Shown here: in pieces, positions 8,150 through 62,822 of the stretch
How the letters are laid out: every line of letters begins with the position of its first letter
How positions within the stretch are numbered: position 1 is the first letter of the stretch
NCBI RefSeq assembly: GCF_006345805.1
Contig: NC_042997.1
Span: 20,770,001 to 20,834,000, forward strand
Source of the DNA: Octopus sinensis
Lineage: Eukaryota
Length of the DNA: 64,000 nucleotides
Direction of reading: 5' to 3'
Position numbers and translations under genes: made by a program
Notes under the pieces: model-generated
The model's database searches: none
Told to the model about the DNA's origin: nothing
What the model saw: only the letters and a program-made list of their open reading frames with translations

Positions 8150-8546
8150 GCACCTCCGTACTGGTGGTATGTATAAAACACCATTTGAGCATGATCATAA
8201 CCTGCGTCGCCTTACTGGCACTTGTGCTGGTGGCACATGCAAAAACATTTGAGTGAGGTAGTTGCCAGTGCCACCGGACTTGCTCCTGTGCAGGTGGCAC
8301 ATAAAAAGCACCATTTGAGCATGGTCATTGCCAGTGTCGCCTGACTGGCCCTCGTGCCGGTGGCACATAAAAGCACCCACTACACTCTCGGAGTTGTTGG
8401 CGTTAGGAAGGGCATACAACTGTAGAAACTCTGCCAGATCAGATTGAAGTCTGGTGCAGCCATCTGGTTCACCAGACCTCAGTCAAATCGTCCAATTCAT
8501 GCTAGCATAGAAAGCAGACGTTAAACGATGATGATGATGATGATGA
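8150..8546 (+). mobile_element. SINE-like family A copy with (GAT)n tail
   Basis: Internal ggtggcacataaaagcacc subrepeats; 3' end ...gctagcatagaaagcagacgttaaacgatgatgatgat shared with many other copies in the window. Confidence 0.85.
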
Positions 8547-16264: not shown

Positions 16265-16322
16265 ATATATATATGTATGTATATATGCATATATTTATAT
16301 ATTATTTATATATATATTTATA

Positions 16323-16515
16323 CTTTATTTAAAGCAGCAGAAAATTCAACAAAACCTGTTACTCTGAGTTTCACGTTGCCGTTCGTCGGACAGTTTTTAC
16401 TCAGAGTAACAGGTTTTGTTGAATTTTCTGCTGCTTTAAATAAAGCATATTACTCTACCACTGTTATTTGAGTACTCTTTTTTTCCACCTTGTTTCACAT
16501 TTATGTGTTTACTCC

Positions 16516-16517
<2 letters not shown>
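16323..16517. mobile_element. Fold-back mini-element (47-bp perfect inverted arms plus ~72-bp tail) in (TA)n, PLE-derived candidate
   Basis: Arms 16323-16369 / 16399-16445; tail ends actccgg then (TA)n; second copy in opposite orientation at 61816-61991. Confidence 0.85.
16356..16393 (-). ncRNA. Minimal type I hammerhead ribozyme fold with variant core (CCGACGA)
   Basis: Minus strand: ctgt-CCGACGA-acg(gcaa)cgt-GAAA-ctcagag-TA-acag. Stem I ctgt/acag, GNRA-capped stem II, near-palindromic stem III, GUA triplet. Confidence 0.7.
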
Positions 16518-16740
<223 letters not shown>

Positions 16741-28538: not shown

Positions 28539-29648
28539 ATAGTGTAATAAATAAAATATATGCATACATACAAACATATATGTACGTACCGACATCTACA
28601 TGTATATATACATGCATATATAAATATATATACGTACAGGACACCACAAGAAGACGTAAAAATCAACAGAAACGAAAACGGAAAAGCCATTTTGTTACAA
28701 CAGAAGGACAGAGACGTGGAACAAGACGAAAACGAAATCGGGAAAAACAATTAGGTACAGCAGAAAAACGAAGTACAGGACATACTACACAAGGAAAAAT
28801 CCCCTTCATCAGCTGTCGCTAGCAGACATAGCGTGTTTCGAAGGCAAGACAGGACACGTCTGTCATGCTAGGCCCTCCTACGAGAGAATTAAAATAAAAT
28901 AACCTCGTAGAGGGGTAAAACGAGCAAGAAAAAAATGTAACACAAAAAGCGAAGTAACAAAGAACTGCACAAAAAAAACAAGAAAAAAATACAAAATTAA
29001 AGATACATGTACAAGAAAATACAAAACGAGAATTAAATTACAATACGAGAAATCAAAATAAACAAGAGAACAAACGAAAAAGACGAACGAAGGCCTTTGT
29101 TCTGGCGGGGACGAGAAGGTAACTGGCGAGCGCTGGGAAACACGACCTTAGGGCCTGAATGCAACAGGCGAAAGGATCAGCAGTGACGAAAGTGAGGAGT
29201 GGGAGAGAGAGAGAGACAGATAGAGGAAGACACAGGCTAGAGAGAAGGGTGAGGCAGAGAGAGAAAGAGAGAGGGGAAGGCAAAGCAAAGGGAGAGAATT
29301 TCGCATCATTGTAGTAAACTGTAAAACAAACTGGGAGGAAAGAGACGGAACGAAGTGAAAATTCGAAAAATCGAAAATTCAAACGAACTCGACGCGAAGC
29401 GCTGACAGACAATAGTGTAATAAATAAAATATATGCATACATACAAACATATATGTACGTACCGACATCTACATGTATATATACATGCATATATAAATAT
29501 ATATACGTACAGGACACCACAAAAAGACGTAAAAATCAACAGAAACGAAAACGGAAAAGCCATTTTGTTACAACAGAAGGACAGAGACGTGGAACAAGAC
29601 GAAAACGAAAACGGGAAAAACAATTAGGTACAGCAGAAAAACGAAGTA
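28539..29648 (-). mobile_element. Non-coding element with 237-bp direct terminal repeats (pLTR-like), in microsatellite context
   Basis: 28539-28775 and 29412-29648 differ at two positions seen. No TG..CA/PBS/PPT LTR signature. HHR-like motifs on the minus strand at ~28801-28871; CpG-rich relative to flanks. Confidence 0.75.
28801..28871 (-). ncRNA. Hammerhead-like remnant
   Basis: Minus strand: ctagca-tgac-agac(gtgtcct)gtct-tgccttC-GAAA-cacgctat-GTC-tgctag-cgacag-CTGATGA-agggg. A 6-bp stem I ctagca/tgctag flanks GAAA..GUC, but the upstream core box is defective and an intact CUGAUGA lies downstream. Confidence 0.4.
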
Positions 29649-29968: not shown

Positions 29969-30130
29969 AACTTCTACTGAATGTGTTGAATGACCTTTGC
30001 TTCTATTTGCCCAATCATATATATATATATATATATAAAATATTATTAGAGACAAAACCACTATTTTGCAAAACAAACAAGGAAAGACTTAATCAATACA
30101 TAAAATTTTAATAAATAGTCAAAAAAACCG

Positions 30131-30173
30131 CCACTACAATCGTTTCTTGTCTTGATCGACAATCTTCAGGTGG
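30131..30173 (-). ncRNA. Minimal type I hammerhead ribozyme
   Basis: Reverse complement of 32058-32100. Confidence 0.8.
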
Positions 30174-32057
30174 ACTTCCAATCTAAAAAATCAAAATTTT
30201 AAAATATAAAAATAATAATTTTAAATAATTAAAGTATAAATGAAAAAATATAAGTATATAATCCATATATAACCTATATATATCCATCGAAAAAATTAGA
30301 CAAATTACCACGAATTCCCTAAAAAAACCATGATAAAACAAAACTCTTAAAACATATAACGATAAAATCCCTTTGCTAAACTCTATAACAAACCTATATA
30401 GTAATCCCCCTAACCTAAACATTCACACACAAATACCACACGTAAACCACAGACCACGACTTATACACATACCTATACTAACTTATAAACTCAATATACA
30501 CCAAAACCCTCTCCCTCCCCACACAGACAAATTAACACATACATCCCAAAACCTAAATAACAAACCCATATACACATTCAACACAAACACACACACACAC
30601 GCAAAACACGCACACACAACAGATACATATACTCCCTCACTATCGCATATACATACTCACTAAACTCGACATATACAACAATACTTACACACCCACAAAA
30701 ATCATTATATACATTTATGAGCTTTAACTTACCTTAGCAGCTCTAACAAACAACTTGCAGTAACCCAATCCATTCTCTATGCCTACCTCACTACTACAAA
30801 TTCCATTCACAATTCCAAGCAACGCTAGTCCACCACCCAGTTATTCACGTGGCAAAACGAACACCACTCAAAAATTATGAATGAAACAATGTAAAAAAAT
30901 AACCACATCGAAAATAGACAAATTACCACGAATTACCTAAAAAACCATGATAAACCAAAACTCATAAAAGCATATAACGATAAAATCTCCTTTGCTAAAC
31001 CCTATAACAAACTTATATAGCAATCCCCCTAACCTAAACATTCACACACAAATACACACACGTAAACACAGACCCAAAACTTATACACTTAAACCTATAC
31101 TAACTTATAAACCTCAATACACCAAAACCCACTCCCTCAACACACAGACAAATTACAATACATCCCAAAACCTAAATAACAAACCCAAATACACATTCAC
31201 ACACAAACACACACACACGCAAAACACACACAACAACAGATACATATACTCCCTCACAAATACGCATATACATACTCACTAAACTCGATATATACAACAA
31301 TATATTTACACACCCACACTCATACAGATAAATAAATTAATATACAACTAAAAACTCACAACCAATCTCATATACATAAACACTCCTATGAAAACAACAT
31401 TAAATACATCGTAATTAACCAGAATATCAAAAATAACAATATGACATAAGGATAAATCAAATACATACTTACAATTCAGTTACAAATTATGAAGTGAAAT
31501 TAAATTCTTAGCCGTTAAAAAACCAAACAAAAATTACGTTACCATAGAAATAACTTATGTAAAAAAAGAATACGCGCCATAGAAAGTAAACGCGCCATAG
31601 AAAGTAAACGTCATTCAAAATATGAATGGAGAAATATAAAAAATGGAACTAAAAACTATATCCACGTAGCAAACCAACGCTACTTGTGTTAATTTGTCTG
31701 TGTGGGGAGGGAGAGGGTTTTGGTGTATATTGAGGTTTATAAGTTAGTATAGGTATGTGTATAAGTCGTGGGTCTGTGGTTTACGTGTGTGTATTTGTGT
31801 GTGAATGTTTAGGTTAGGGGGATTACTATATAGGTTTGTTATAGAGTTTAGCAAAGGGAGATTTTATCGTTATATGTTTTAAGAGTTTTGTTTTATCATG
31901 GTTTTTTTAGGGAATTCGTGGTAATTTGTCTATATTTTTTCGATGGATTATATATAGGTTATATATCGATTATATACTTATATTTTTTCATTTATACTTT
32001 AATTATTTAAAATTATTATTTTTATATTTTAAAATTTTGATTTTTTAGATTGGAAGT

Positions 32058-32100
32058 CCACCTGAAGATTGTCGATCAAGACAAGAAACGATTGTAGTGG
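32058..32100 (+). ncRNA. Minimal type I hammerhead ribozyme
   Basis: ccac-CTGAAGA-ttgtc(gatcaa)gacaa-GAAA-cgattg-TA-gtgg: 4-bp stem I, 5-bp stem II, near-palindromic stem III (acgattgt); predicted cleavage after 32096. Confidence 0.8.
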
Positions 32101-32279
32101 CGGTTTTTTTGACTTTTATTAAAATTTTATGTATTGATTAAGTCTTTCCTTGTTGTTTTGCAAAATAGTGGTTTTGTCTCTAATAAATTTTATAATATTT
32201 TACTATAAAATTGGATTTAATCCTAAACTGATTTTTTCCCTGTAAATTTGGATTTATTCCTAATATTTATATTATATAT

Positions 32280-32323
<44 letters not shown>

Positions 32324-32619
32324 CACTTAATAAGACAGAAAGAAATGAAATAGCATACCTCTGTTGGATGTGTAATGCCAGCATGCTTAAACACTTGGTT
32401 TAATAGATCTTCAGAAGCACAGCATTCTGGTTGCTGCACTTTCTAGTATTCCTATTTCCCTTCCTGATCTCAAGTTTGAGTTTGCTATGGTTGCTCCCTT
32501 CGAGTTGTGTTTCTGCTATAGCCATTTCTCCCAACCCTAGCTAGGTTAATTATATTAACATCATTACTACTTATTATTGATCCACTATTATGGAAATTGC
32601 TTCACCTATGCACATTTTG

Positions 32620-34400
32620 TGCTGCTATAATCTGCATGAAATACCAGCTATTAGAAAAGGTGAGCTGGATTTTATACTTATAAACACATGGTATTTGCTG
32701 TTTTTTTGAAAATATTTCTCTAATGCCAAGTAGAATAATTTGGGAATGTTGGAAAGAATTTGCTTTCTGAAAGGAATTATATGCCAGTTTTTTTTCCAGT
32801 TATCTAGCATACTGCAATTATTGTTAGGATTGTCCTTCTTACTACATTTATTTATTCTATTGCTATTATTGTTGTAGATCTTTAATTTTTCTCTATACCC
32901 CACCTTTTCTAGTGCTAAATTATAAAAGTCTTCATTTAGTTAGAAAATTTCTTCATTCGCTTGACAGGTTAGAAATACAGGCAAATATATTTACTACTAT
33001 TGACTGGGTTATACATCAAGGGTGATTACTATTTTTATGTATTTGGCTTGTGATAAAGTTTATACATCTCTGCACTTAGATCTATTGATATGGACAGTCC
33101 TAGGTTCTTAAAATTAAAAAACAAAATTCTCTATTGCTACATATCTCTAAGTTTGAGGGGAATTCCCTGTTTAGGCTAAATAGCATATATATTTCTTTCT
33201 AAGTTCGTAACTTGTGTGGAGTCTGTTGATCCCATAGTAATATCAAACATCTCTGGTCTCTCCTTTCTAACCCAATACTTATCCTCGAATTTGATCATTG
33301 ATTTTCTAGCTGCTAAAATAACACCTATTTTTTCTCTAATTAGTTTGGTGTTATTCATAGCAGGGATGAGTGCCTTGTTTAGGAGAAGAGGGTTAATAGG
33401 GGTGTAATAATTAGAAATATCAATTTGCATTAATTGTGTACTATTTGTATTAGGGAGATTAACGAACTAGTTAATAACTTTGTAAAGAACTAGACCAGAG
33501 TTTCAGCTTAATTATGTTCCTTAGAGAGCGTGTATACTTATCTATTATATGTTTCCTTATCCTACCAAGGACATATGAGTTAGTGTTAAAATTTGGTTTT
33601 AACACTTAAGATTAATACTAGGGGTTCTAGTGTCATAGGATTCAGTTTTATTATATACCCTATATCTTCCATATTATAGCTTTGGCTTGCATGTTAGGTT
33701 GTTGGGATTCGTGTCTTTGTAGTTTCTAGTGATTTCTTTTTAAATAGTGCATGGTTATTAGAGTGGCATAAGGGGTACTAGCTACTGGTTATGTCTGTGT
33801 ACCCCAATATTCATTCCATCTTTAAGGCAGTAAGCTGGCAGAAATGTTAGCATGCCGGGCAAAATGCTTAGCGGTATTTTGGCTGTCTTTATGTTCTGAG
33901 TTCAAATTCCACCATGGTCAACTTTGCCTTTCATCCTTTCAGGGTCGATAAATTAAGTGCTAGTTGCATACTGGGGTCGATCTAATCGACTGCCCCCCCC
34001 CACAAATTTAGGGCCTTGTGCCTAGAGTAGAAAAGAAAAGAATATTCATTCCTTCTTCAGAAGTTTTTTAGTTATAGAGTGTAGTTTCTGAAGGTGTTTA
34101 TTCCTTCTTAGGGGGAATCCTTTGAATTTGATGTTTTTAATTATATTCCATAGTTCATCTTCGAAAGCAGCTACGTTTTGGTTTGGGGGTGGATATTTCC
34201 TAGTTTTGAAGATTTGCTGTAACTGTAACTGTTCATCTCTTTTCTTGCTGCTGAAATCTGCTTATTTTCAGTCATGGAAGTACGCATGCCATCTCAATCT
34301 ATGTATGAATGAGTTGGTTTTGCTGATATATTCCTTCTTTGATGGTAGTGAAATATCCTTGGGGGATGTGTCAATGTTAATTAACTCCATTCTCAGGTAC
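32620..34400 (-). pseudogene. Decayed Penelope-like element reverse transcriptase body
   Basis: Minus-strand frames: SPKDISLPSKKEY..FIHRLRWHAYF..FKTRKYPP..FEDELWNIIKNIKF; QIDISNYYTPINPLLLNKAL..ARKS..WVRK..FDITMGSTDSTQVTNL; IIPFRKQILSNIPKLF..KYFQKNSKYH. These match the PLE RT type with FDVTMGSxDGAE and WFNPPF motifs; split by a SINE. Confidence 0.88.
33825..34040 (+). mobile_element. tRNA-derived SINE family B inserted in the PLE
   Basis: aggcagtaagctggcagaaatgttagc...gagttcaaattcc...; 19-bp TSD with 2 mismatches (33806-33824 / 34041-34059). Confidence 0.92.
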
Positions 34401-59263: not shown

Positions 59264-59838
59264 CATCATCATCGTTTAACGTCTGCTTTCCATGCTAGCA
59301 TGGGTTGGACGATTTTGACTGAGGGCTGGCGAACCAGATGGCTGCACCAGACTCCAATCTTGATATGGCAGAGTTTCTACAGCTGGATGCTCGTCCTACC
59401 ACCAACCACTCTGAGAGTGTAGTGGGTGCTTTTATGTGCCAACGGCACGGAGGCCAGTCAGGCGGTACTGGCAATGACCTCGCATGAATCTTTTTACACA
59501 TGCCACCAGCACAGATGCCAGTAAGGCGACACTGGTAACGATCAAACTCAAATGGTGCCTTTTACATGCCACTAGCATGGAAGCCAGTTAGCCGCTCTGG
59601 CAACGATCATGCTCGGATGGTGCTTTTGGTACCCTACTAACACAGATGCCAGTCATTGAATTTGATTTCACTTGCCTCAACAGGTCTTTGCAAGCAGATT
59701 TTTAGTGTCCAAAGAAGGAAAAGGTATGCATAAGTGGGCTGGTTACACTCCTGGCATAGGCCATGAGGTTATGGTCTCATTTGGCTTGCCGGGTCTTCTC
59801 AAGCACAGCATATTTCCAAAAGTCTCAGTCACTAGTCA
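59264..59838 (-). mobile_element. Long SINE-like family A copy
   Basis: (CAT)n start, multiple subrepeats, extra upstream segment (59670-59838). Confidence 0.88.
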
Positions 59839-61090: not shown

Positions 61091-61815
61091 TATATGCTAA
61101 GCCCCAGTAATGTAATCATATCTGAAATATATGTTAAAGTCTAGACACTGTACAAAATGGTTTGTTGCTATTTTTGTAGGAGGTTTAATGATTGTAAAAA
61201 GTGCATTGTTGTTTACACGTTAGAAATACAGGTAAAATTTAGACCAGCACTAACATATTCATAACATTTGAGGCACAAAAAATATTCAATTGTGATACCA
61301 GCCACGTTGTCATAATTTTATCGATTTGTTATGAACGTTTTTTAACTTTTAATGTGCTTTTTGCCAATCCTTTAATTATGCATACAACTTCAGCAGCAAC
61401 AAATTAACTTACAACACTTTATTATAAGGAGTAAAAGCAATAACTGGAGATTGTTTTCTTAAAGAATATTACTAGTTACAGTGTTCTTAAACATTTAGGT
61501 GAATTATGACTGTAAGCAATTCTCAGTATGTAAAAAATTCTTTCATTAGAATCTATATCTTTTATCTTTTATTTGTCTCAGTCATTAGACTACAGCCATG
61601 TTGGTACCATCTTGAAAGGTTTTGTTGAGCAAATCAATCTTTTTTTTTTAAAAGTCTGGTATTTCCTTTGTTATTCTCTACTGCTGAACTGCTAATTTAC
61701 AGGTTTGCAAGCAAACCAACCCTGGCTGTCAAGTGGTTTGGATATAGACATGCAAAAATACAAAGATGCACACAAATATATATATATATATATTATATAT
61801 ATATATATATATATA

Positions 61816-61991
61816 CCGGAGTAAACACATAAATGTGAATCAAGGTGGAAAAAAAGAGTACTCAAATACCAGTGGTAGAGTAATATGCTTTATTTAAAGC
61901 AGCAGAAAATTCTACAAAACCTGTCCGATGAACGGCAACGTGAAACTCAGAGTAACAGGTTTTGTAGAATTTTCTGCTGCTTTAAATAAAG
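61816..61991. mobile_element. Second fold-back mini-element (37-bp perfect arms plus tail) in (TA)n
   Basis: Arms 61888-61924 / 61955-61991; tail 61816-61887 is the near reverse complement of 16446-16517. Confidence 0.88.
61921..61958 (+). ncRNA. Minimal type I hammerhead ribozyme fold with variant core (CCGATGA)
   Basis: ctgt-CCGATGA-acg(gcaa)cgt-GAAA-ctcagag-TA-acag; predicted cleavage after 61954; stem I extendable to 37 bp. Confidence 0.72.
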
Positions 61992-62196
61992 TATATATAT
62001 ATATATATATATGCATGTACATCAGACTTCTACATAGGTTTTTTTCAACCAAATTCACTCTCAGAGCATTTGTTGGGCCATGGTTATATTAGAGTAAATG
62101 ACACAGGTGAAGATTAACCAAATGGACGTTGGGATACTGAATGACAAGCACAAAAATATTTTTAATGAATTAAAATTTTCCCTCTTAGTTGGAGAA

Positions 62197-62550
62197 TCAT
62201 CACCATCATTGTTTAACGTCTGTTTTCCATGCTATCATGGGTTGGACGGTTCAACCGGGGTCTGGGAAGCCAGGAGGCTGCACCAGGCTCCAGTCTGATC
62301 TGGCAGTGTTTCTACAGCTTGATGCCCTTCCTAATACCAACCACTCTGTGAGTGTAGAGGGTGCTTTTTACTTGCCACTGGCACAGGGGTCAGAGGAGGC
62401 TGGCAAACAGCCATGATCGGTTGGTGTTTTTATGTGTTACCGACACAGATGCCAGTCAGGCAGCTTGGCATCTGCCACGTTCGGATGGTGCTTTTTACGT
62501 GTCACTGGTATGGGTATCTTAATTACAATTTCCATTTGATTTTTATTTTG
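62197..62550 (-). mobile_element. SINE-like family A copy
   Basis: catcattgtttaacgtctgttttccatgc... Confidence 0.85.
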
Positions 62551-62589
62551 ATGTTGGTAACAAAAATCTTGCAGTAATTGTTAGTGACT

Positions 62590-62822
62590 CAAGCTGTAAA
62601 AACCCCATACCAAAACTGACCTCACCTGCTCTGGTGCTATGTAATCTGCACTCAGTCCACTCTGCAGAGAGGTTGGTGTTAGGAAGGACATCCAGCAGTA
62701 AAAACCATGCCAAAACAGACACTGAAGTCTGGTGCAGTCTTCTGCCTAGCTAGCTCCTGTCAAACTATCCAAACCATGCCAACATGGAAAGTGGACGTTA
62801 AATGATGAGGAGGAAGACGATG
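62590..62822 (+). mobile_element. Diverged SINE-like family A copy
   Basis: ttggtgttaggaaggacatccagc...catggaaagtggacgttaaatgatga. Confidence 0.75.

What the first reader, a model, noticed from the sequence alone, without database searches (positions are those of the whole stretch)
61816..61991. Ultra-minimal fold-back element: little more than a hammerhead core on a 37-bp perfect stem
Seen: a 30-nt hammerhead core (CCGATGA, acg-GCAA-cgt, GAAA, ctcagag, GUA) sits between 37-bp perfect inverted arms, with a 72-bp tail, embedded in (TA)n. Read on the minus strand, the long arm begins at the predicted cleavage-product 5' end (acagg...), although the 4-bp stem I makes the junction ambiguous. Known: PLE pLTRs carry minimal type I HHRs with palindromic stem III, and PLE insertions often have an inverted 5' pLTR lacking the 3' tail. 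Inference: a ~180-bp non-autonomous PLE parasite formed by template switching at the ribozyme.
Basis: partly seen in the sequence, partly recalled or inferred. Interest (0 to 1): 0.82.

Follow-up and report, generated by a model that had tools for sequence, protein, structure and literature searches.

The report
Stump-sized Penelope insertion with hammerhead
This 176-base hairpin is real, but it is most likely one of many very short, dead-end insertions of an abundant Penelope-type jumping gene whose mirror-image half is made anew at each landing, not a tiny parasite that copies itself as a unit.

Summary
The anatomy is exactly as described: 37-bp perfect arms, a 30-nt hammerhead-like core, a 72-bp tail, (TA)n on both sides. 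A second copy in the window (16323-16517) has the same two outer ends but another centre, and at the one arm position where the copies differ, both arms of each copy agree, so each mirror arm was copied from that insertion's own donor. Public contigs of four runs show a very abundant family with (TA)n at both fixed ends; all 15 of 41 joints shown differ and sit at single-locus depth. The finding's own centre is at most about 8-12% of core-bearing depth. This is the known head-to-head Penelope-like insertion with a one-sided tail, cut very short. Best mechanism: priming at two fixed RNA sites 37 and 109 nt behind the ribozyme cut, then joining of the two cDNAs, often in stem I. Junctions lean towards stem I, but the match to the cut site follows from stem geometry and does not show cleavage. 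The core departs from consensus (U4C, A-U at 10.1-11.1), no Rfam hammerhead model hits, and no linked ORF was reachable.

The parts
61776..61815 (.). (TA)n target array, tail side
   Evidence: same flank type at this end in public contigs (loose ends before 61819 in 36/25/36/5 records of X1/X3/X5/X7)
61816..61887 (-). 72-bp tail: pLTR positions +38 to +109 (+1 = first base after the predicted cut), present on one arm only; outer end = distal priming site
   Evidence: same outer end in copy 2
61888..61924 (-). tail-bearing arm, pLTR +1 to +37; 5'-truncated at the base of stem I
   Evidence: (37 bp perfect)
61921..61924 (.). inversion junction, ambiguous over the 4 bp shared by the arm and the native stem I 5' strand
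   Evidence: 61920 is C here but A in copy 2's direct arm and in 76%, 76%, 98%, 68% of depth in X1, X3, X5, X7
61925..61954 (+). minimal type I hammerhead-like core: 5' box 61925-61931 with U4C, stem II 61932-61941 (3 bp, A-U closing pair), GAAA 61942-61945, near-palindromic stem III 61945-61953, predicted cut after 61954
   Evidence: sequence; stem II pair probability 0.94-0.95, stem III 0.005 in the monomer; stem III self-duplex -7.4 kcal/mol; no Rfam hit
61955..61991 (+). tail-less arm, pLTR +1 to +37; outer end = proximal priming site
   Evidence: (TA)n abuts this end in 37/21/25 records of X1/X3/X5 (listed as loose ends before 61883)
61992..62012 (.). (TA)n target array, tail-less side
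16399..16517 (+). copy 2, tail-bearing arm, pLTR -10 to +109 (runs 10 nt past the cut site, to the start of stem III)
16323..16398 (-). copy 2, tail-less arm, pLTR -39 to +37, with core (16389-16360) and the native 5' strand of stem I

Best explanation
A dead-on-arrival, extremely 5'-truncated, head-to-head insertion of an abundant endonuclease-type Penelope-like family that targets (TA)n. Steps: (1) the element's RNP nicks both strands of a TA array (inferred from flanks and from Frangieh 2024); (2) each nick primes reverse transcription at one of two fixed internal sites of the pLTR RNA, 37 and 109 nt behind the ribozyme cut; the 72 nt between them is the one-sided tail (two fixed ends shown; priming inferred); (3) both cDNAs stop early, in or near the hammerhead, which lies only a few dozen bases away; (4) the two cDNAs are joined end to end with 0-7 nt of microhomology or a few extra bases (heterogeneous joints shown; end joining inferred). 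In the finding's copy the join lies inside stem I, whose two strands are the longest complementarity between the two cDNAs at that place; this gives a 37-bp perfect stem that ends at the cut site whether or not the RNA was cleaved. The mirror arm is built anew at each insertion, so the 176-mer is a product, not a replicating unit.
For: Copy 2 shares both outer ends to the base but has arms -10..+109 and -39..+37, against +1..+109 and about -34..+37 in copy 1. At +12 copy 1 has A in both arms and copy 2 has T in both arms; arms are 37/37 and 47/47 identical within copies while the copies differ at 3 of 109. In four runs 10628, 5420, 3924 and 318 contigs lie on the 176-mer, most 90-99% alike; loose ends show (TA)n at both fixed ends. 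Of 41 joints 15 are shown: all differ, each in 1-2 contigs per run at depth about 10-117, like the 21-108 of single pieces in the three large runs; 12 of 14 rows with letters between also differ. 7 of 14 forward joints have 2-7 nt microhomology against 8-20% expected (aligner bias possible). Upstream of the core most depth carries the native A at 61920, 3 to 40 times the C of this copy. The arrangement (inverted pLTR, tail on one side, palindrome at the junction) is described in Arkhipova 2013 (PMC3846280) and Craig 2021 (PMC8557442); tail = stretch between two RT start sites in Frangieh 2024 (PMC11167929). A second, unrelated hammerhead-bearing family in the same window has the same layout at 2.2 kb (about 30040-32265).
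Against: No RT/GIY-YIG ORF could be tied to this pLTR: none adjoins either copy, no whole genome is held, and 351 loose ends were not shown. Joints come from short-read contigs, 26 of 41 unseen, only joints inside the 176-bp reference are visible, and for 12 of 14 forward rows the tool prints 'between: not known' (8 of these have overlapping letters, 4 are unresolved). The upper bound of 8-12% still leaves room for up to a few hundred copies with this centre. Three further pieces bridge the centre colinearly with small gaps (X5 piece 24, X7 pieces 30 and 31), so similar centres recur. Both window copies (2 of 2) are ultra-short, more extreme than the usual picture. The tail is 72 bp, longer than the 30-40 bp in print. 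The stem I duplex between cDNAs is weak for the 9 native bases seen in the window (-5.0 kcal/mol) and was not among the 15 best 12-mer duplexes.
Confidence: 0.78

Rival explanations
1. One reading: a fixed ~176-bp fold-back non-autonomous element that is transcribed and re-inserted as a unit by a PLE protein.
For: Both outer ends are fixed; the minus-strand transcript would hold +1..+109 in sense; C at 61920 has summed depth 11688, 7693, 4692, 517 in X1, X3, X5, X7, and near-identical centres recur (pieces 24, 30, 31). PLE pLTRs can act in trans (PMC3846280 passage).
Against: Copy 2 has another centre; the +12 difference is in both arms of each copy; shown joints all differ; upper bound 8-12% of core depth, 0.3-0.4% if spread over overlapping contigs, and that depth may include native arms laid on the left side. 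The transcript lacks everything beyond +109, while PAc needed RNA about 55 nt beyond its start sites (PMC11167929).
Confidence: 0.08
2. Cleavage run-off (a variant of step 3): the ribozyme cuts the template RNA, RT runs off at the cut, and this sets the arm end at +1 and, after trimming, the cluster at +6 to +9.
For: Copy 1's arm starts at +1; one joint seen in X3 and X5 (61921 to 61963, 3 shared letters) can also end at +1. 8 of 14 forward joints have both arms stopping behind the cut; 7 of 14 direct-arm starts fall in +6..+9, scan p = 0.0009; 6 of 14 left-arm ends fall in +2..+8, scan p = 0.03.
Against: No direct arm starts at +1..+5 (0 of 14); 3 of the 7 clustered rows have unknown letters between, leaving 4 of 10; stalling of RT on entering stem I from its 3' side predicts the same cluster; copy 2 and at least two 5c rows run past the cut; U4C and a weak stem III argue for poor activity; in PAc cleavage was not needed and no reads ended at the cut (PMC11167929).
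Confidence: 0.25
3. Copy 1's centre arose after insertion, by deletion between the two imperfect direct repeats that a longer head-to-head junction carries (arm +1..+9 reversed, and the native stem I 5' strand).
For: Copy 2 converts to copy 1's centre by one 19-bp gap bounded by the same 4-mer (alignment); hairpins favour slippage; microhomology deletions in PLEs are reported (PMC3846280).
Against: The copies are not parent and child (+12 differs in both arms); several joints give near-perfect palindromes without spacer, which deletion after insertion is not expected to favour (inference).
Confidence: 0.15
4. The donor RNA is itself short and non-coding (a retrozyme-like or pLTR-only unit, perhaps starting just upstream of stem I), which is why inserts are so short; the PLE protein acts in trans.
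For: 2 of 2 window copies are under 200 bp; 6 of 23 direct-arm starts lie in -31..-46 and one more at about -48; sequence upstream of stem I has low agreement, 0.51-0.59; animal retrozymes are proposed PLE derivatives (bioRxiv 2026.07.22.740005).
Against: No tandem repeat of this unit in the window; the upstream consensus is AT-rich and ends in AG, as an intron end does before stem I in D. virilis Penelope (PMC4209133), which points to a normal pLTR; longer copies are invisible with a 176-bp reference.
Confidence: 0.2
5. A MITE-like DNA element or chance hairpin with a motif look-alike.
For: TA flanks; no Rfam hammerhead hit.
Against: The outer ends are not inverted repeats of each other; one arm is 72 bp longer; centres vary; core boxes, stem II, palindromic stem III and GTA stand in the right order in both copies.
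Confidence: 0.02

Closest known systems
Inverted-pLTR insertions of endonuclease-bearing PLEs with optional tail (Arkhipova, Yushenova, Rodriguez 2013, PMC3846280; Craig et al. 2021, PMC8557442; passages read)
   Same: Head-to-head 5'-truncated partners, tail on one side only, palindrome or microhomology at the junction, AT-rich microsatellite targets that hide the TSD.
   Different: Both partners are cut down to under 120 bp, so no ORF or full pLTR remains; tail 72 bp instead of 30-40; no linked ORF seen.
[quoted passage not shown]
   Same: Type I order of boxes, 4-bp inner stem I, small palindromic stem III suited to a dimer, scattered copies from truncated PLEs; that paper already notes pairs 100-700 bp apart on opposite strands, and an intron end at the 5' side of helix I in D. 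virilis.
   Different: U4C in the core, stem II only 3 bp, A-U instead of G10.1-C11.1, no unpaired base after position 9; a T-to-G change at 11.1 in about a third of depth in three runs.
Poseidon of Anolis (PAc) in vitro (Frangieh et al. 2024, PMC11167929; parts 1-2 of 4 read)
   Same: Two internal RT start sites that define the tail; both target strands cut and extended; AT-rich target.
   Different: There the ORF starts at stem II; here the matching ATG frame closes after 29 codons and the ATG is ACG in copy 2. That paper does not treat inversion junctions in the parts read.
Animal non-LTR retrozymes (Cervera and de la Pena 2020, PMC7229834, passages; Li, Clavereau, Pollet 2026 preprint, part 1 of 5 and passages)
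   Same: Short, non-coding, type I hammerhead, PLE-related.
   Different: Retrozymes are head-to-tail tandems with two or more ribozymes; this is a head-to-head single-core insertion.
L1 twin priming (recalled; only a search listing seen)
   Same: Two target nicks prime two cDNAs that are joined with microhomology into an inversion.
   Different: In L1 the second priming site is variable and the arms do not overlap; here both sites are fixed and the arms overlap, giving an inverted duplication.

Membership tests
Endonuclease-bearing PLE (truncated insertion) | pLTR in inverted arrangement with a tail at one end only | tested here: met
   both ends abut (TA)n in public contigs
Endonuclease-bearing PLE (truncated insertion) | variable 5' truncation and variable inversion junctions | tested here: met
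   2 window centres plus 15 of 41 joints shown, all different
Endonuclease-bearing PLE (truncated insertion) | hammerhead motif in the pLTR | tested here: met
   motif in both copies; variant core, see below
Endonuclease-bearing PLE (truncated insertion) | linked ORF with PLE-type RT and GIY-YIG endonuclease; clade assignment | not testable with these tools
   no genome held; no ORF next to either copy; metagenome scans 0 and 0
Endonuclease-bearing PLE (truncated insertion) | target-site duplication | tested here: inconclusive
   copy 1: only TA shared; copy 2: 38-bp exact repeat on both sides, but about 160 bp of microsatellite from the tail end
Minimal type I hammerhead | core boxes CUGANGA, GAAA, NUH in type I order with stems I and II | tested here: inconclusive
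   all boxes present except U4C; stem II 3 bp; U4C is a known natural slow variant (PMC3088659 passage); no Rfam hit
Minimal type I hammerhead | G10.1-C11.1 pair and unpaired base after position 9 (PLE consensus) | tested here: not met
   A-U pair directly after A9 (consensus)
Minimal type I hammerhead | palindromic stem III allowing a dimer | tested here: met
   9-nt near-palindrome, duplex -7.4 kcal/mol; monomer stem III probability 0.005
Minimal type I hammerhead | self-cleavage | not testable with these tools
   needs a bench assay; only contigs, no raw RNA reads
Non-LTR retrozyme | head-to-tail tandem of two or more ribozyme-bearing units | tested here: not met
   single core per insertion, head-to-head arms; no such tandem in the window
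Self-propagating non-autonomous fold-back element | many copies share one centre and descend from it | tested here: not met
   at most 8-12% of core depth; a small subfamily is not excluded
MITE | terminal inverted repeats at both outer ends | tested here: not met
   outer ends differ; one arm 72 bp longer

The most novel reading that the evidence does not exclude
In this family the hammerhead fold itself decides where the two cDNAs stop and join: RT stalls on entering stem I or runs off a cleaved RNA, and the two stem I strands splint the join. Thousands of stump insertions would then be a genome-wide footprint of how the PLE ribozyme acts during transposition, in a family whose core is fixed for the slow U4C variant. 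A small sub-branch: copies like this one, with an intact core on a perfect 37-bp stem I, could be re-mobilised as units.
Probability: 0.3. Interest if true: 0.6.

Novelty: new member of a known kind. Interest (0 to 1): 0.3.

Why it matters
The role of the hammerhead in PLE transposition and the origin of the head-to-head structure are open (Craig 2021 and Frangieh 2024, passages read). A family with two fixed priming sites close behind the ribozyme and thousands of short inserts offers a cheap census test: where do the two arms end relative to the cut and to stem I? As it stands the finding is one ordinary product of a known architecture; what is new is the family, its variant core, a 72-bp tail and a lean of junctions towards stem I. 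Such inserts also seed perfect RNA hairpins across the genome.

Tried and rejected
Whole-genome search: no genome held. Metagenome scans with a core pattern and a tail pattern: 0 and 0. Rfam: 0 matches at gathering score in 64 kb; at E<=10 only generic hairpin families. Sequencing runs: no RNA holder on record; X7 is a guessed RNA run and contigs cannot show ends, so expression, 5' ends at 61955 and circles were not tested. No listed piece spans the 176-mer: expected for a high-copy repeat and not used as evidence. Summed depth is not a copy number; plateau/31/45 gives about 1300-2100 (my assumption of single-locus depth 45) and only supports 'thousands or more'. Enrichment of direct-arm starts on the two stem I strands is weak: 17 of 23 (p = 0.01), 13 of 19 after dropping 4 rows with unknown letters between (p = 0.06), 10 of 14 for table 5 alone (p = 0.06); categories chosen after seeing the data; 3 rows whose orientation I could not read (61894/61963, 61966/61914, 61963/61921) were left out. 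Duplex scan did not single out stem I. The ATG in the core opens only 29 codons; no protein search was run on it. The RT-like remnant at about 32600-34400 gave 0 Pfam families for 2 of 2 peptides scanned and a weak atlas lead; nothing ties it to this pLTR. Literature searches for an octopus or cephalopod PLE hammerhead, PLE twin priming, PLE hairpin inversions and non-autonomous PLEs found no description of this family or of ORF-less stump inversions, but the library lacks many subscription papers, Repbase and Dfam; Lunse et al. 2017 on dimeric PLE hammerheads is recalled only (one search fetched an unrelated paper), and supplement file 1 of PMC4209133 and the supplements of the other papers were not seen and may list such motifs. 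Earlier-finding look-ups by sequence and place were empty.

Full report
Observation. The 176 bp at 61816-61991 consist of a 72-bp tail, a 37-bp arm (61888-61924), 30 nt of hammerhead-like core and the perfect inverse arm (61955-61991), between (TA)n arrays. The hairpin folds far better than 200 of 200 shuffles. I number positions from the predicted cut: +1 is 61955, the first base after GTA. The plus strand carries about -34..+37 (core, no tail); the minus strand carries +1..+109 (tail, no core).

The ribozyme. Boxes stand in type I order. Departures from the PLE consensus of Cervera and de la Pena 2014 (Results, Discussion and a supplement line read): U4C, a 3-bp stem II closed by A-U rather than G10.1-C11.1, no unpaired base after position 9. 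Stem III is a 9-nt near-palindrome: pair probability 0.005 as a monomer, -7.4 kcal/mol as a dimer. The ribozyme fold of 61915-61964 lies 3.6 kcal/mol above the minimum. No other letter is listed at the U4C position in four runs, so it seems family-wide, though that table has only 9 rows; position 11.1 is G in 33%, 34%, 31% and 8% of depth, which breaks the closing pair. U4C is a natural slow variant in a viroid (PMC3088659 passage). Rfam finds no hammerhead here. So it reads as a variant minimal PLE hammerhead; activity is untested.

A second copy. Local BLAST finds one more copy, 16323-16517 on the minus strand. Both outer ends are the same to the base and both lie in TA arrays. The centre differs: the tail-bearing arm runs to -10, past the cut, and the other arm starts at -39, showing the native 5' strand of stem I with A at -35 where copy 1 has C. 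At +12 copy 1 has A in both arms, copy 2 T in both arms; arms are identical within each copy (37/37, 47/47), while the copies differ at 3 of 109 bases. Descent from one fold-back master would need the same change twice or arm-to-arm conversion; copying both arms from one donor at insertion explains it directly.

The family in public data. 24 runs of 12 studies hold the stretch in part. I laid 4 of the 24, all contigs: 10628, 5420, 3924 and 318 records, most 90-99% alike. Among the 24 of 375 loose ends shown, (TA)n abuts the +109 end in all four runs and the +37 end in three. Before 61915 the loose consensus is AT-rich and ends in an AG-bearing 6-mer (30-34 records, agreement 0.51-0.59); it would extend stem I to about 14 bp with one mismatch and one bulge, and resembles an intron end placed before helix I as in D. 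virilis Penelope; this is a lead only. Related subfamilies show up as loose ends behind 61894 and 61898. Of 41 joints 15 are shown; each is different and stands in 1-2 contigs per run at depth about 10-117; five recur in two runs. 12 of 14 rows with letters between are shown and also differ. At 61920 the native A outweighs this copy's C by 3.2, 3.1 and 39.5 times in X1, X3, X5; the C depth bounds this centre at 12%, 11% and 8% of core depth, or 0.3-0.4% if spread over overlapping contigs. Both letters can be inflated by arms laid on the left side (A by a subfamily, C by native arms), so these are rough. Against my reading: three pieces bridge the centre with only small gaps (X5 piece 24; X7 pieces 30, 31), so centres like this one recur.

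Where the junctions fall. Among 14 forward joints, 8 have both arms stopping behind the cut, 7 direct-arm starts fall in +6..+9 (scan p = 0.0009; 4 of 10 after dropping rows with unknown letters between), none in +1..+5, 6 left-arm ends fall in +2..+8 (p = 0.03), and 7 have 2-7 nt microhomology. Adding 7 rows of table 5c and the two window copies, 17 of 23 direct-arm starts lie on a stem I strand (p = 0.01; 13 of 19, p = 0.06, with uncertain rows dropped). Only joints inside the 176-bp reference are visible and the tool keeps the best supported, so this is a lean, not a proof.

Mechanism. Shown: two fixed ends in TA arrays, variable centres, allele-matched arms. From print: PAc protein cuts and extends both target strands and starts RT at two internal RNA sites that bound the tail; ribozyme cleavage was not needed and no reads ended at the cut (PMC11167929); inverted partners, one-sided tails and junction palindromes are typical of PLEs. 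Inferred: two primings at +109 and +37, early stops near the ribozyme, end joining. For this copy the join lies in stem I. Because the cut site is the base of stem I, three routes give the same junction: run-off from a cleaved RNA, pairing of two cDNAs through stem I with flap trimming, or later deletion between stem I repeats (copy 2 turns into copy 1's centre by one 19-bp gap). The sequence cannot tell them apart. Self-priming of one cDNA, the model offered in Arkhipova 2013, does not fit this copy by itself: the tail is on one arm only and the core on the other only, so neither arm is a full copy of the other (inference).

Internal comparison. An unrelated family at about 30040-32265 has the same layout at 2.2 kb: inverted arms 97% alike over 180 bp, a consensus-type core (32062 on plus, 30169 on minus), an AG a dozen bases before the core, a tail of about 78 bp on one side, TA flanks. 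It shows the ordinary long form of what the finding is in stump form.

Host. Not determined by any search; the repeat landscape looks cephalopod to me from recall, and Craig 2021 notes only Naiad remnants in cephalopods, which would fit the decayed RT at 32600-34400.

Comparison and verdict. Works like, and by structure belongs with, truncated inverted insertions of endonuclease-bearing PLEs; the ORF test could not be run. Not a retrozyme, not a MITE, and not shown to be a self-propagating element. Earlier AI notes on shark and other genomes describe the same kind of stump insertion; I read them after forming my view and treat them as leads that lower novelty, not as support. No paper on this family turned up in nine searches, within the library's limits. 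New member of a known kind; interest 0.3.

Noticed in passing
window 30040-32265: Second, unrelated hammerhead-bearing PLE-type insertion in (TA)n: inverted arms (30103-30282 / 31949-32128, 97%), core at 32062 (+) and 30169 (-) with 5-bp stem II, tail of about 78 bp on the right only, and an internal 619-bp-spaced direct repeat (partial tandem).
   Followed up: partly
window 32600-34400 (-): Decayed RT-like reading frames with stops and frameshifts, interrupted by another repeat near 33810-34040; looks Naiad-like from recall; 0 Pfam hits for 2 peptides, atlas lead to an RVT_1-bearing cluster at score 0.90 (19% of members).
   Followed up: partly
window 16680-16717 and 16272-16309: Exact 38-bp repeat of AT-rich non-periodic sequence on both sides of copy 2, the tail-side one about 160 bp away across microsatellite: possibly a long TSD whose TA part later expanded.
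   Followed up: partly
window 61883-61887 versus 61992-61996: The RNA bases just behind the +37 priming site match the TA target at 4 of 5 positions, so this priming site may use short pairing with the target, unlike the non-homologous start reported for PAc.
   Followed up: no
window 61816-61887 and 32187-32264: Both hammerhead families in this window have tails of 72-78 bp, about twice the 30-40 bp in print.
   Followed up: partly
window 28539-28775 and 29412-29648: 237-bp direct repeat, 99% alike, 873 bp apart, around a purine-rich segment; looks like the end of another mobile element in partial tandem.
   Followed up: no
window 62197-62817: Nested inverted repeats (62293-62348 / 62665-62720, 82%; 62197-62258 / 62756-62817, 71%) from two oppositely oriented copies of a common interspersed repeat with a 64-66-bp internal unit also seen at 8173-8377 and 59498-59653.
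   Followed up: no
loose ends behind 61894 and 61898: Related subfamilies of the finding's pLTR with changed sequence just behind the cut site, one with a T at +5 that would remove the stem I mismatch.
   Followed up: no
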